This document shows, piece after piece, positions 27,901 to 30,900 of a DNA stretch of 64,000 bases; within the stretch, counting starts at the first letter, position 1; each line of letters opens with the position of its first letter. The position numbers were made by a program. The stretch lies in assembly GCF_003334355.1 (NCBI RefSeq), contig NZ_QOWP01000011.1. The stretch is one strand, 5' to 3'. This DNA is from Escherichia coli. Lineage in GTDB: Bacteria; Pseudomonadota; Gammaproteobacteria; Enterobacterales; Enterobacteriaceae.

Positions 27901-30900
27901 CAACGGGTAATACGCCGCGCGGGCAGAGCTGGCAGCCTTTATCATCACAAGTCATATCTGGCTGGCAGGTAAACTCCTGATGATTCTCTTCATCATCAGT
28001 GTCATACACCCGCAATTCGATATCACGTAGCAGGGTTAAATTCTGTAAGCCGTTGAGTACAGGTGACAGGCGTTCACACAGCGGGGCGCGGGAATGCAAA
28101 CGGCGGTTAGCCTGCCATAAAAAAGAGAGGATCTGATTTTTATGCTCCAGCCCGGCGGTTTTCTCCTGAACCCGCTGCTCAAGTACGGCATAACTTTCGG
28201 CCAGTTCTGCAGACATATTGTTCAATGCAGTTCCAAGCATCGCCATTTCGTTGCGCCCGCTGATGTTCGCGCGTTGGGTAAAATCGCGATGACTGACGGC
28301 ACTCGCCATTGCCAGCAGTTGCCGCCACGGTTGTAGCAGTCGCGCCCGCAACCAGATAATAGTGAACACCAGTAAAAGTGCCATAAATACCGCCATTACC
28401 CGATGGACCAGTACCACTGTCTCAATGCGCATTTCCGTGGTGCGGTCAAAACCAGATACCAGCTGATCAAGCCCGGCAACAAACTGGCTGACATCCGCTG
28501 ACACCGTTTCGCGGTTTTGTGCACGCATCAGTGCAGGGATCAGTTCATTACGCCAGTAATCTTGTAAACCCTGTAATTGCGCCAGTTGTCCGTCTCGTTC
28601 TGCTGCTCGAGTCAACTCGGCGCTAAATGCCGTTTGTTCCATCTCTTTAATTAAGGGCTTGTCTTTCTCGCTTAATGGCACTGCTGCCAACAGACGGTAA
28701 CTTTGCATGCGCAGCGATCCCGCTTTGTTGATCGCATGGGCGCTGCCCTGAACGCCTTGCACCAGCCAGCCAGAAACCGCCATCCCTGCCAGTCCAATAG
28801 CAGTAGAAAGCAACACAATAAGCGCAACCTGATTAACCAGGGTGAGCGGAGAGAGACAACGTTTAAGCATGTAAACCTCTTCCTTCAGGCTTTAAATGAG
28901 CAATAACCTTAATGAATGTGACGATACATTCTGGAATGGCAGTATTCTCGGCTATTGGCTGAAGTATACCCATACCCGGAAAGAGTTACTCCTTATTTGC
29001 CGTGTGGTTAGTCGCTTTACATCGGTAAGGGTAGGGATTTTACAGCACCGTGAAAAATCTCATAATTTTTATGAAATCACTGTACTCACTATGGGTAATG
29101 ATAAATATCAATGATAGATAAAGTTATCTTATCGTTTGATTTACATCAAATTGCCTTTAGCTCCAGACACTAAGGTGGCAGACATCGAAACGAGTATCAG
29201 AGGTGTCTATGAGTCACTCATCCGCCCCCGAAAGGGCTACTGGAGCTGTCATTACAGATTGGCGACCGGAAGATCCTGCGTTCTGGCAACAACGCGGTCA
29301 ACGTATTGCCAGCCGCAACCTGTGGATTTCCGTTCCCTGTCTGCTGCTGGCGTTTTGCGTATGGATGTTGTTCAGCGCTGTTGCGGTGAACTTACCGAAA
29401 GTCGGTTTTAATTTTACGACCGATCAGCTATTTATGTTGACTGCGCTGCCTTCGGTTTCTGGCGCGTTATTACGTGTTCCATACTCCTTTATGGTTCCTA
29501 TCTTCGGTGGTCGTCGCTGGACGGCGTTCAGCACCGGTATTCTGATTATTCCTTGCGTCTGGCTGGGTTTTGCCGTGCAGGATACCTCCACGCCTTATAG
29601 CGTCTTCATCATCATCTCTCTGCTATGCGGCTTTGCTGGCGCGAACTTCGCATCCAGTATGGCAAACATCAGCTTCTTCTTTCCGAAACAGAAGCAGGGT
29701 GGCGCGCTGGGTCTGAATGGTGGTCTGGGAAACATGGGCGTCAGCGTCATGCAGTTGGTTGCTCCGCTGGTGGTATCACTGTCGATTTTCGCAGTATTTG
29801 GTAGCCAGGGCGTCAAACAGCCGGATGGGACTGAGCTGTATCTGGCGAATGCGTCCTGGATATGGGTGCCGTTCCTTGCCATCTTCACCATTGCGGCGTG
29901 GTTTGGCATGAACGATCTTGCTACCTCGAAAGCCTCCATCAAGGAGCAGTTGCCGGTACTCAAACGGGGTCATCTGTGGATTATGAGCCTGCTGTATCTG
30001 GCAACCTTCGGCTCCTTCATCGGCTTCTCCGCGGGCTTTGCAATGCTGTCAAAAACGCAGTTCCCGGATGTTCAGATTCTGCAATACGCTTTCTTCGGGC
30101 CGTTTATTGGTGCGCTGGCGCGTTCTGCAGGTGGTGCATTATCTGACCGTCTGGGCGGAACTCGTGTCACGCTGGTGAACTTTATTCTGATGGCGATTTT
30201 CAGCGGCCTGCTGTTCCTGACCTTACCGACTGACGGGCAGGGCGGAAGCTTCATGGCGTTCTTCGCGGTCTTCCTGGCGCTGTTCCTGACAGCTGGGCTG
30301 GGTAGTGGTTCCACTTTCCAGATGATTTCAGTGATCTTCCGTAAACTGACAATGGATCGCGTGAAAGCAGAAGGGGGTTCTGACGAACGTGCGATGCGTG
30401 AAGCGGCAACCGACACGGCGGCGGCGCTGGGTTTCATCTCTGCGATTGGCGCGATTGGTGGCTTCTTTATCCCGAAAGCGTTTGGTAGCTCGCTGGCATT
30501 AACGGGTTCGCCAGTCGGCGCAATGAAGGTATTTTTGATTTTCTATATCGCCTGCGTAGTGATTACCTGGGCGGTATATGGTCGGCATTCTAAAAAATAA
30601 ACCGTTACTCGTCATACTTCGGGTTACATGTGCTGCGGCTGCGTTCATTCACCCCAGTCACTTACTTTAGTAAGCTCCTGGGATTCATTCACTTGCCGCC
30701 TTCCTGTAAACCGAATTATATAGAGTAAAATATTTGATTATCCTTTGCGCGGCATGATGTCGCGCTTTTTTTATGCGTCATTTAGTTACAACATACTAAT
30801 GTTATATGGTTTATTTCGCCGGATTTCATTAAGAGCCATTAATATGTTACCCATGGGGAATACTCCTTAATACCCATCTGCATAAAAATCTTAATAGTTT

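What the first reader, a model, noticed from the sequence alone, without database searches (positions are those of the whole stretch)
30601..30773. Long narK 3' UTR ending in a strong terminator: candidate 3'-UTR-derived sRNA
narK stops at 30600 but the first convincing intrinsic terminator (gcgcggcatgatgtcgcgc plus T8) is at 30747-30773, leaving about 170 nt of structured 3' UTR before the narG regulatory region. A processed 3'-UTR sRNA (NarS) has been described from narK in enterobacteria; this segment is the candidate site.
Basis: inference. Interest (0 to 1): 0.4.

Follow-up and report, generated by a model that had tools for sequence, protein, structure and literature searches.

The report
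Known NarS sRNA carrying ERIC repeat
The long structured tail after narK is the already annotated E. coli small RNA gene narS, and it is long only because a common mobile repeat (ERIC) sits between the narK stop codon and the short working part of the RNA.

Summary
narK stops at 30598-30600. The only strong intrinsic terminator is at 30747-30765, followed by T7 (not T8) at 30766-30772, and the 172 nt in between fold far better than shuffles (z = -4.6).

The NarS interpretation is also right, but it is not new. Here the window is identical to E. coli K-12 MG1655, whose RefSeq record annotates ncRNA narS (b4813) at window 30589-30772. A covariance model built only from non-Escherichia narK 3' ends hits the window once, at 30714-30772 (55.9 bits, E 3e-8). 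Bases 30728-30746 pair over 19 bp with the Shine-Dalgarno and start codon of nirC, the published NarS target.

It is a 123-nt net insertion, not the "170 nt" stated in the NarS paper. 2456 of 5417 complete E. coli genomes with this locus carry it, and the other genomes sampled have a ~50-nt UTR. Four Citrobacter species carry an independent ERIC in the same spacer, in the opposite orientation. The predicted fold leaves the seed unpaired.

Verdict: already known and of low interest. The side question is whether ERIC changes NarS processing. Next door, a Tus-binding Ter site (TerD) lies 10 bp past the terminator.

The parts
29209..30600 (+). narK coding sequence (463 codons plus TAA stop at 30598-30600), the parental mRNA of NarS
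   Evidence: The ORF list gives 29203-30600 from an upstream GTG. The K-12 annotation places narK at 1277957-1279348, which is window 29209-30600.
30589..30772 (+). narS as annotated in E. coli K-12 (b4813, 184 nt; called 'NarS-S' in Bar et al. 2021). The 5' end is the position equivalent to the RNase E site mapped in Salmonella. The longer NarS-L equivalent would start at 30538.
   Evidence: annotation; sequence identical to K-12. (PMC8175672 Table 2A gives NarS-L 1279286-1279520 and NarS-S 1279337-1279520, with boundaries taken from Wang et al.). (PMC7038943).
30604..30729 (.). ERIC / IRU / RU-1 miniature inverted-repeat element, with TA-bounded core at 30606-30727. As RNA it folds into a long imperfect hairpin (30605-30728). 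The net insertion relative to empty-site E. coli is 123 nt.
   Evidence: The ERIC2 primer sequence matches 30646-30667 on the minus strand with 2 mismatches, against 0 expected by chance. The element aligns end to end with ERIC copies at tnaB-mdtL, pgk-fbaA and yeiS-preT. All 5426 E. coli genomes hold copies, median 10 places per genome. Empty-site alignment, fold.
30728..30746 (+). Single-stranded NarS seed region AAAUAUUUGAUUAUCCUUU (conserved core UUGAUUAUCC at 30734-30743), complementary to the nirC Shine-Dalgarno sequence and AUG
   Evidence: A 19-bp duplex (one G-U) forms with K-12 nirC -13 to +6, at -21.4 kcal/mol against -5.2 +/- 1.7 for 1000 shuffled seeds, none as good. The core is conserved downstream of narK in about 12 genera. 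It is unpaired in the MFE fold, with an opening energy of 0.7 kcal/mol.
30747..30772 (+). Rho-independent terminator of narK/NarS: hairpin GCGCGGCA-UGA-UGUCGCGC (30747-30765) plus U7 (30766-30772). By analogy with Salmonella NarS it is also the Hfq-binding 3' module.
   Evidence: scan; the stem is 96.9% paired across 23 sequences from other genera, with 3 of 7 pairs showing compensatory changes. [quoted passage not shown]

Best explanation
Window 30589-30772 is the E. coli narS gene. It encodes NarS, a known Hfq-dependent small RNA that has no promoter of its own and is cut out of the 3' end of the narK mRNA. narK is transcribed under anaerobic nitrate conditions (FNR, NarL) and terminates at the hairpin plus U7 at 30747-30772. 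RNase E cuts the mRNA just upstream of the stop codon, releasing a 3' fragment that Hfq holds by its terminator and U-tail. The single-stranded seed (core UUGAUUAUCC, 30734-30743) pairs with the ribosome-binding site and start codon of nirC inside the nirBDC-cysG mRNA and blocks its translation. Cells that make the nitrate/nitrite antiporter NarK therefore make less of the nitrite importer NirC. In this strain, as in K-12, a 122-bp ERIC miniature transposable element sits in the ~15-nt spacer between the stop codon and the seed. This stretches the 3' UTR from ~50 to 172 nt and the annotated sRNA from 61 to 184 nt. ERIC folds on itself as a separate hairpin and leaves the seed and terminator untouched. 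Shown here: the anatomy, the identity to the K-12 annotation, the ERIC identity and its polymorphism, the cross-genus conservation, and the seed-nirC complementarity. Taken from the literature (Salmonella experiments; E. coli RIL-seq): RNase E processing, Hfq dependence and nirC repression. Inferred: that the ERIC-bearing RNA works the same way.
For: 1. The K-12 RefSeq record annotates narS at these coordinates, and the window is identical to it there.
2. Covariance model R1, built from 23 narK 3' ends of non-Escherichia genera, gives a single hit in the 64-kb window at 30714-30772 on the + strand (55.9 bits, E 3.2e-8). It gives no hit in Klebsiella, Raoultella, Kluyvera or Rahnella loci, narU-paralog loci, or Vibrio and Yersinia loci.
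3. A 19-bp seed duplex forms with E. coli nirC -13 to +6, at -21.4 kcal/mol, with 0 of 1000 shuffles as good. This matches the published 14-bp NarS-nirC duplex that sequesters the Shine-Dalgarno sequence.
4. The terminator stem is conserved, with compensatory changes.
5. PMC7038943 states that the E. coli K12 counterpart is longer because of an insertion near the narK stop codon, that NarS is enriched in Hfq coIP in E. coli, and that E. coli RIL-seq supports nirC-NarS pairing. PMC8175672 lists 8 RIL-seq targets for the E. coli narK 3' UTR.
6. ERIC identity comes; the empty site.
7. The seed is predicted to be at least as accessible in the 184-nt ERIC-bearing RNA (opening energy 0.7 kcal/mol) as in the 61-nt empty-site RNA (1.3 kcal/mol).
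Against: No experiment on the E. coli RNA species was found in the papers I could read. The K-12 5' ends appear to be transferred from Salmonella (boundaries 'relied on the original papers'), and RefSeq still calls the product 'putative'. Rfam 15 gave no match to any NarS model here, so the family test rests on a model I built myself. I could not obtain the Salmonella NarS sequence, because no supplement is held and no Salmonella locus was among the 80 returned. Comparison with the experimentally studied RNA is therefore indirect, through Citrobacter, Enterobacter and others. An ERIC hairpin beginning 5 nt after a stop codon could alter processing or stability, as reported for Yersinia ERICs (reviews).
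Confidence: 0.9

Rival explanations
1. Same gene, different mature product. In ERIC-bearing strains the active NarS is not the annotated 184-nt RNA but a short ~41-55-nt species, made by a second cleavage in the A/U-rich stretch formed by the right end of ERIC and the linker (about 30712-30733; for example AU|AUU at 30730-30734 fits the RNase E motif RN|WUU). A ribosome terminating at 30598-30600 would cover the left foot of the ERIC hairpin (which starts at 30605) and unmask its right arm. This is the mechanism proposed for stop-codon-proximal ERICs in Yersinia.
For: The outer ERIC helix pairs 30605-30610 with 30723-30728, only 5 nt after the stop codon. Reviews report that ERICs at the 3' ends of Yersinia genes unmask an RNase E site in the 3' terminal inverted repeat and that orientation matters. 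The linker 30729-30746 is unpaired in the predicted fold. The K-12 5' ends were not mapped in E. coli itself.
Against: This is motif-level inference only. The same AUAUU motif exists in empty-site strains, so it is not specific to ERIC. I could not read the primary Yersinia paper, so I cannot say whether the E. coli narK element is in the orientation reported to destabilise. No E. coli 5'-end data were available.
Confidence: 0.3
2. The ERIC insertion has crippled NarS in this lineage. Under this reading the 3' UTR now acts mainly as an ERIC-type stability element for narK mRNA, and the seed and terminator are a relic.
For: The insertion separates the processing site (30589) from the seed by 123 extra, strongly structured nucleotides. 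ERICs have been reported to change the stability of upstream transcripts.
Against: The seed and terminator in ERIC-bearing genomes are base-for-base identical to those of the empty-site E. coli sequence from O157. The seed is predicted to be accessible. RIL-seq in K-12, which carries the ERIC, detected NarS-nirC chimeras on Hfq according to PMC7038943, and 8 targets according to PMC8175672. The same architecture also persists in four Citrobacter species.
Confidence: 0.1
3. The structured segment is a separate functional RNA or coding element: an antisense sRNA like Vibrio AS5, or one of the 30-32-codon ORFs inside it.
For: Rfam V_AS5 matches the minus strand at 30608-30730 with E 1.7e-4. ORFs 30578-30670, 30628-30723 and 30630-30728 exist. 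ERIC elements are reported to carry ORFs.
Against: The V_AS5 score is 30.9 bits against a gathering threshold of 96. The aligned core is the ERIC core, so the simplest reading is that the Vibrio family contains an ERIC-like repeat. No promoter-like site above chance lies on either strand of the segment. The segment is absent from more than half of E. coli genomes and is a multicopy repeat.
Confidence: 0.03

Closest known systems
NarS (STnc2040) of Salmonella enterica, a 63-nt RNase E-processed, Hfq-dependent sRNA from the narK 3' UTR (Wang et al. 2020, PMC7038943)
   Same: Same parental gene and strand, and the same terminator-plus-U-tail 3' end. The same conserved single-stranded seed lies just upstream of the terminator, with the same target site (nirC Shine-Dalgarno region). 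K-12 already carries the gene name narS.
   Different: The E. coli K-12-type RNA has a 123-nt ERIC insertion between the processing site and the seed, making it 184 nt rather than 61-63 nt. The paper calls this a '170-nt insertion sequence' and does not identify it; my alignment gives 123 nt. Processing, Hfq dependence and regulation were shown in Salmonella and not, in the papers I read, for the ERIC-bearing E. coli RNA.
ERIC / IRU / RU-1 elements (127-bp enterobacterial MITEs; Sharples & Lloyd 1990; Hulton et al. 1991; reviewed in PMC2229807)
   Same: The element matches in length, conserved core, terminal inverted repeats TACTC...GAGTA, TA at the ends, hairpin as RNA, multicopy dispersal, and location just after a stop codon inside a transcript.
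   Different: This copy lies inside an sRNA gene, between its 5' processing site and its seed. I found no paper in the searchable library that links ERIC with narK or NarS. The flanking TA duplication is degraded: one base is lost on the left and one substituted on the right.
Other RNase E-processed 3' UTR sRNAs of Enterobacteriaceae (CpxQ, SdhX, RaiZ, MalH, GlnZ)
   Same: The general design is the same: no own promoter, release from the mRNA 3' end, a terminator that serves as the Hfq module, and a short conserved seed.
   Different: None, other than the target and the embedded repeat.

Membership tests
NarS sRNA | Lies at the 3' end of narK on the same strand and ends at the narK Rho-independent terminator | tested here: met
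   narK stop at 30598-30600; hairpin 30747-30765 plus U7; narS annotated in K-12 at the same coordinates.
NarS sRNA | Conserved, single-stranded seed immediately upstream of the terminator hairpin | tested here: met
   UUGAUUAUCC at 30734-30743. The same decamer (0-2 changes in the 13-mer) lies downstream of narK in Escherichia, Citrobacter, Enterobacter, Lelliottia, Leclercia, Kosakonia, Phytobacter, Silvania, Trabulsiella, Pseudescherichia, Entomohabitans and Cedecea. It is unpaired in the predicted fold.
NarS sRNA | Recognised by a sequence and structure model of the family that was not trained on this sequence | tested here: met
   Model R1 (23 non-Escherichia sequences) gives a single window hit at 30714-30772 on the + strand, 55.9 bits, E 3.2e-8. 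narU paralogs and NarS-less genera give no hit. Rfam 15 gave no NarS match, so only my own model could be used.
NarS sRNA | Seed complementary to the Shine-Dalgarno region of nirC | tested here: met
   19 consecutive pairs (one G-U) with K-12 nirC -13 to +6, at -21.4 kcal/mol; 0 of 1000 shuffled seeds reach this.
NarS sRNA | Released from narK mRNA by RNase E at a site just upstream of the stop codon, with no promoter of its own | not testable with these tools
   Shown in Salmonella. Here, the sequence CAUUCUAAAAA around 30589 is shared by E. coli and Citrobacter, and no promoter-like site lies in 30601-30746 on the + strand.
NarS sRNA | Hfq binding and Hfq-dependent stability | not testable with these tools
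   The hairpin plus U7 module is present. The literature reports Hfq coIP enrichment in E. coli and RIL-seq chimeras with nirC.
ERIC / IRU / RU-1 MITE | About 127 bp with the conserved central core used for the ERIC-PCR primers | tested here: met
   The element spans 126 aligned positions, 30604-30729. The ERIC2 primer matches 30646-30667 on the minus strand with 2 mismatches, against 0 expected by chance (the primer sequence is from my own knowledge).
ERIC / IRU / RU-1 MITE | Terminal inverted repeats and a long hairpin as RNA | tested here: met
   TACTCG... at 30606 and ...GAGTA at 30727; hairpin 30605-30728; MFE z = -4.58.
ERIC / IRU / RU-1 MITE | Dispersed multicopy family in the genome | tested here: met
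   51,843 places in 5426 E. coli genomes, median 10 per genome (range 3-18). Other copies are 85-90% identical over 96-98% of the element.
ERIC / IRU / RU-1 MITE | Insertion at TA with TA duplication, with filled and empty sites among relatives | tested here: inconclusive
   The filled versus empty polymorphism is clear, and the empty site has TA exactly where the element sits (CGTAAT in E. albertii and L007; CTTAAT in O157). The duplicated TA is imperfect in the window: the left flank is T instead of TA and the right flank is AA instead of TA.
Rfam RF02818 V_AS5 (Vibrio antisense RNA 5) | Score at or above the family's gathering threshold (96 bits) | tested here: not met
   30.9 bits on the minus strand at 30608-30730. 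I read the similarity as shared ERIC-like repeat sequence.

The most novel reading that the evidence does not exclude
The ERIC element is a natural, lineage-specific modifier of an sRNA. It was inserted between the NarS processing site and its seed in about 45% of sequenced E. coli, including K-12. Serotype-labelled rows suggest phylogroups A/B1, but this was not tested. An independent ERIC, in the opposite orientation, was inserted in the same ~15-nt spacer in part of the Citrobacter freundii complex. On this reading the element changes which NarS species is made, or how much of it and how stable it is, and hence how strongly nirC is repressed. E. coli lineages would then differ in nitrite-uptake control through a MITE in an sRNA gene.
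Probability: 0.25. Interest if true: 0.45.

Novelty: already known. Interest (0 to 1): 0.15.

Why it matters
The finding itself only re-locates a published, annotated sRNA, so it adds nothing to the catalogue.

Three small points may be useful to people who work on NarS or on 3' UTR sRNAs:
- The unexplained "insertion sequence" in E. coli K-12 NarS is an ERIC element. It is 123 nt, not 170 nt.
- It is a presence/absence polymorphism within E. coli, and it recurs independently in Citrobacter. Isogenic or natural pairs therefore exist to test how a structured MITE inside an sRNA precursor affects RNase E processing and Hfq loading.
- The K-12 coordinates of narS appear to be transferred from Salmonella rather than mapped, so the real mature species in K-12 is still open.

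Tried and rejected
- Rfam at gathering thresholds over the whole window gave nothing in the region.
- Rfam at E <= 10 on 30400-31150 gave only sub-threshold hits. V_AS5 is attributed to shared ERIC-like sequence. RyhB, GadY, GcvB, Hrs1 and L20_leader all align only to the terminator hairpin and U-tail, and I rejected them as generic terminator resemblance.
- The promoter scan found no + strand promoter inside the UTR. It found one weak minus-strand match (30615-30587, 9 of 12), with the total count at chance level, so I dropped the idea of an independent or antisense transcript.
- The small ORFs inside ERIC were not pursued, because the segment is a multicopy repeat missing from most strains.
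- I tried to get the Salmonella NarS sequence from the paper's supplements, but none are held. A text search for the seed sequence in the paper found nothing.
- I tried to read De Gregorio et al. 2005 (PMC1291288) to assign the A or B orientation, but it is not held. The orientation-specific prediction therefore could not be made.
- Literature searches linking ERIC with narK or NarS returned only irrelevant papers.
- The genome-contig scan returned no Salmonella locus among its 80.
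Full report
**Where the window is**

The window is E. coli chromosome of K-12 type. A 3001-nt stretch around the finding differs from NC_000913.3 1277500-1280500 at six positions, none of them between 29407 and 31672. Window coordinate = K-12 coordinate minus 1,248,748.

**The observation**

- narK ends with TAA at 30598-30600.
- The terminator scan finds four terminator-like sites in 29000-31300, against 3.0 expected by chance. Three are 5-pair stems inside narK. The fourth is by far the strongest: GCGCGGCA-TGA-TGTCGCGC at 30747-30765 (8 pairs, 6 G-C), followed by seven T at 30766-30772.
- The 173 nt from 30601 to 30773 fold to -52 kcal/mol, against -35.2 +/- 3.7 for shuffles (z = -4.58).
The structure is essentially one long imperfect hairpin (30605-30728) plus the terminator, with 30729-30746 unpaired between them.

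**What the structured part is**

The hairpin is an ERIC (also called IRU or RU-1) repeat.

- The ERIC2 PCR-primer sequence (from my own knowledge) matches 30646-30667 on the minus strand with two mismatches, where shuffles give no match.
- The element aligns end to end (30604-30729) with ERIC copies from three unrelated E. coli intergenic regions: tnaB-mdtL, pgk-fbaA and yeiS-preT. This includes the terminal inverted repeats TACTCG...GAGTA.
- A blastn search with the 127 nt finds 51,843 places in all 5426 complete E. coli genomes, median 10 per genome. Non-narK copies are 85-90% identical.
- These properties match the published description of ERIC: 127 bp, 7-bp perfect terminal inverted repeats, TA at the termini, target-site duplication, and a stable RNA stem-loop (PMC2229807; PMC2759123).
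- The only notable Rfam hit in the region is V_AS5 on the minus strand, at 30.9 bits against a threshold of 96. It aligns to the ERIC core. I read it as shared repeat sequence, not family membership.

**The insertion is polymorphic**

- A 450-nt query across the narK 3' end matches 5417 of 5426 genomes. Only 2456 of them cover it fully.
- All sampled rows from the remaining genomes match in two pieces spanning 327-329 bp.
- Alignment with two such genomes (O157:H7 Z892 and B1.H1.18) shows a clean 123-nt gap. Their 3' UTR reads TAA-ATCTTAATATTTGATTATCCTTTGCGCGGCATGATGTCGCGC-T7, about 50 nt.
- Escherichia albertii, Escherichia sp. MOD1 and a divergent E. coli-like genome are also empty, so the empty state is ancestral.
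- The empty site has a TA exactly where the element sits. In the window the flanking TA copies are slightly degraded.
- Serotype-labelled rows suggest phylogroups A/B1 versus the rest: K-12 derivatives, O121 and O111:H8 are filled, while O157:H7 and O145:H28 are empty. This rests on my own knowledge of those serotypes and was not tested.

**What the conserved part is**

NC_000913.3 annotates ncRNA narS (b4813, "putative small regulatory RNA NarS") at 1279337-1279520, which is window 30589-30772. The finding is therefore an annotated gene. The literature gives the following.

- Wang et al. (PMC7038943) describe Salmonella NarS-S as a 63-nt RNA. It is RNase E-processed, Hfq-dependent, induced with narK by FNR and NarL, and it represses nirC through a 14-bp duplex over the Shine-Dalgarno sequence.
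[quoted passage not shown] They also state that E. coli RIL-seq supports the nirC-NarS pair.
- Bar et al. (PMC8175672) list E. coli NarS-L at 1279286-1279520 and NarS-S at 1279337-1279520, with 8 RIL-seq targets. Their boundaries are taken from the original paper.
- By my alignment the insertion is 123 nt, not 170 nt. The figure of 170 roughly equals 235 minus 63, or the whole UTR length.

**Independent tests of NarS membership**

- A protein-guided scan of one genome per species returned 80 narK or narU loci.
- Downstream of narK orthologs, the decamer UUGAUUAUCC followed by a GCGCGG...CCGCGC hairpin and a U-run occurs in Escherichia, Citrobacter, Enterobacter, Lelliottia, Leclercia, Kosakonia, Phytobacter, Silvania, Trabulsiella, Pseudescherichia, Entomohabitans and Cedecea.
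- It does not occur in Klebsiella, Raoultella, Kluyvera or Rahnella, or after narU paralogs. This agrees with, and slightly extends, the published distribution.
- I aligned 23 non-Escherichia, ERIC-free sequences (A1) and built covariance model R1. It hits the 64-kb window once, at 30714-30772 on the + strand (55.9 bits, E 3.2e-8). It also hits all Escherichia and ERIC-bearing Citrobacter loci, and none of the negative-control loci.
- The terminator stem is 96.9% paired, with compensatory changes at 3 of 7 pairs.
- Window 30728-30746 (AAAUAUUUGAUUAUCCUUU) forms 19 consecutive pairs, one of them G-U, with K-12 nirC from -13 to +6. The duplex energy is -21.4 kcal/mol, against -5.2 +/- 1.7 for 1000 shuffled seeds, none of which is as good.

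**Does ERIC interfere?**

- In the predicted ensemble, the energy to open the 10-nt seed core is 0.7 kcal/mol in the 184-nt ERIC-bearing RNA and 0.6 in the 235-nt form. It is 1.3 kcal/mol in the 61-nt empty-site RNA. ERIC folds on itself and does not mask the seed.
- This fits the report of K-12 RIL-seq chimeras, and it argues against the idea that the insertion killed NarS.
- What cannot be decided here is which RNA species is mature in K-12. The ERIC hairpin starts 5 nt after the stop codon, so a terminating ribosome should melt its outer helix (30605-30610 with 30723-30728) and expose the A/U-rich right arm just upstream of the seed.
- Reviews describe this mechanism for stop-codon-proximal ERICs in Yersinia: an RNase E site is unmasked in the 3' terminal inverted repeat, and the effect depends on orientation. 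I could not read the primary paper.
- A second cleavage giving a ~41-55-nt NarS is therefore a live alternative to the annotated 184-nt form. It is inference only.

**Recurrent insertion**

- Four Citrobacter loci (C. youngae, C. werkmanii, and Citrobacter spp. Cu233 and wls619) also carry an ERIC between the narK stop and the seed. Four other Citrobacter loci are empty.
- The Citrobacter elements match the E. coli element only as reverse complement (blastn, alignment). They sit at a different TA a few bases away.
- These are therefore independent insertions into the same ~15-nt A/T-rich spacer, in opposite orientations.
- This could reflect a target preference (TA in an A/T-rich, transcribed, stop-codon-proximal spacer), tolerance of the insertion, or selection. 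I cannot distinguish these.
- No paper in the searchable library links ERIC with narK or NarS. Wilson & Sharp 2006, which catalogued E. coli ERICs, is not held and may list this copy.

**Neighbourhood**

- Ten bases after the U-run lies a 15-nt block, TAGTTACAACATACT (30783-30797). It is invariant in about 30 narK loci across genera, including some that lack the NarS seed.
- A text search showed that it is the core of the Tus-binding Ter sequence. The TerB oligonucleotide in PMC4499146 contains AGTATGTTGTAACTAAAGT.
- The Ter consensus GNRNGTTGTAAYKA (from my own knowledge) matches the window only once, at 30783-30796 on the minus strand, and it matches 32 of the cross-genus narK loci fetched in the scan at the same relative position.
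- By map position this is TerD (my own knowledge).
- It keeps a constant 77-80-bp distance to the narG -200 NarL box TACYCCTTAATACC.

**Verdict**

The feature is already known and annotated, so interest is low. The new details are the ERIC identity of the insertion, its true size, its ~45% frequency in E. coli, the independent Citrobacter insertion, and the fact that the mature K-12 species is unmapped. These are modest, but they define a clean experiment.

Noticed in passing
window 30778-30800 (Ter consensus match 30783-30796, minus strand): A Tus-binding replication terminator (Ter) site lies 10 bp downstream of the NarS terminator. By K-12 map position it is TerD (my own knowledge). Its 15-nt core is invariant at the same place next to narK in about 30 loci from many genera, including Kluyvera, Klebsiella oxytoca and Pluralibacter gergoviae, which lack the NarS seed. 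It keeps a constant 77-80 bp from the narG -200 NarL box. narK transcription approaches it from what I take to be the permissive face, so the strong terminator may also shield the Tus-Ter complex from transcription (inference). It is not annotated in the RefSeq feature table returned for this stretch.
   Followed up: partly
L010, L012, L013, L079 (Citrobacter sp. Cu233, sp. wls619, C. werkmanii, C. youngae), about 10-130 nt after the narK stop: An independent ERIC insertion sits in the same stop-codon-to-seed spacer of the narK 3' UTR, in the opposite orientation to the E. coli one. Four other Citrobacter loci (L009, L011, L014, L042) have the empty site.
   Followed up: yes
PMC7038943 text versus window 30601-30772: The NarS paper gives the E. 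coli insertion as 170 nt and the RNA as ~230 nt. Alignment with empty-site E. coli gives a 123-nt insertion, and the K-12 annotation gives a 184-nt narS (235 nt for the NarS-L equivalent).
   Followed up: yes
window 30852-30869: TACTCCTTAATACCCAT, two NarL-type heptamers (TACYYMT, from my own knowledge) of the narG upstream activating region, is conserved across genera as TACYCCTTAATACC.
   Followed up: no
L008, L025, L080 (Pseudocitrobacter faecalis, Pluralibacter sp. UBA7423, Enterobacteriaceae RIT691), just after the narK stop: The seed is truncated (UUUUUGAUUAUCAGG) and runs straight into the terminator stem. These loci give weak model hits of 37-41 bits. They are possibly a degenerate or variant NarS with a shifted seed.
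   Followed up: no
window 20573-20638, 21108-21173, 21643-21708 (+); 37961-38747 (-); 38500-38581 and 38794-38875 (-): There are three tandem rdlD-family antitoxin RNAs 535 bp apart (the ldr/rdl repeats), four RtT repeats, and two tRNA genes (by K-12 position presumably the tyrT-tyrV cluster, my own knowledge). All score above the Rfam gathering thresholds and are known K-12 features.
   Followed up: no
L085 401-526; L086 401-523; L087 401-526: The three other E. coli ERIC copies I fetched lie 9, 64 and about 150 nt downstream of the stop codons of tnaB, pgk and yeiS. They are transcribed in the orientation opposite to the narK copy of E. coli, that is, in the orientation of the Citrobacter narK copies. 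The sample is too small to call a bias.
   Followed up: no
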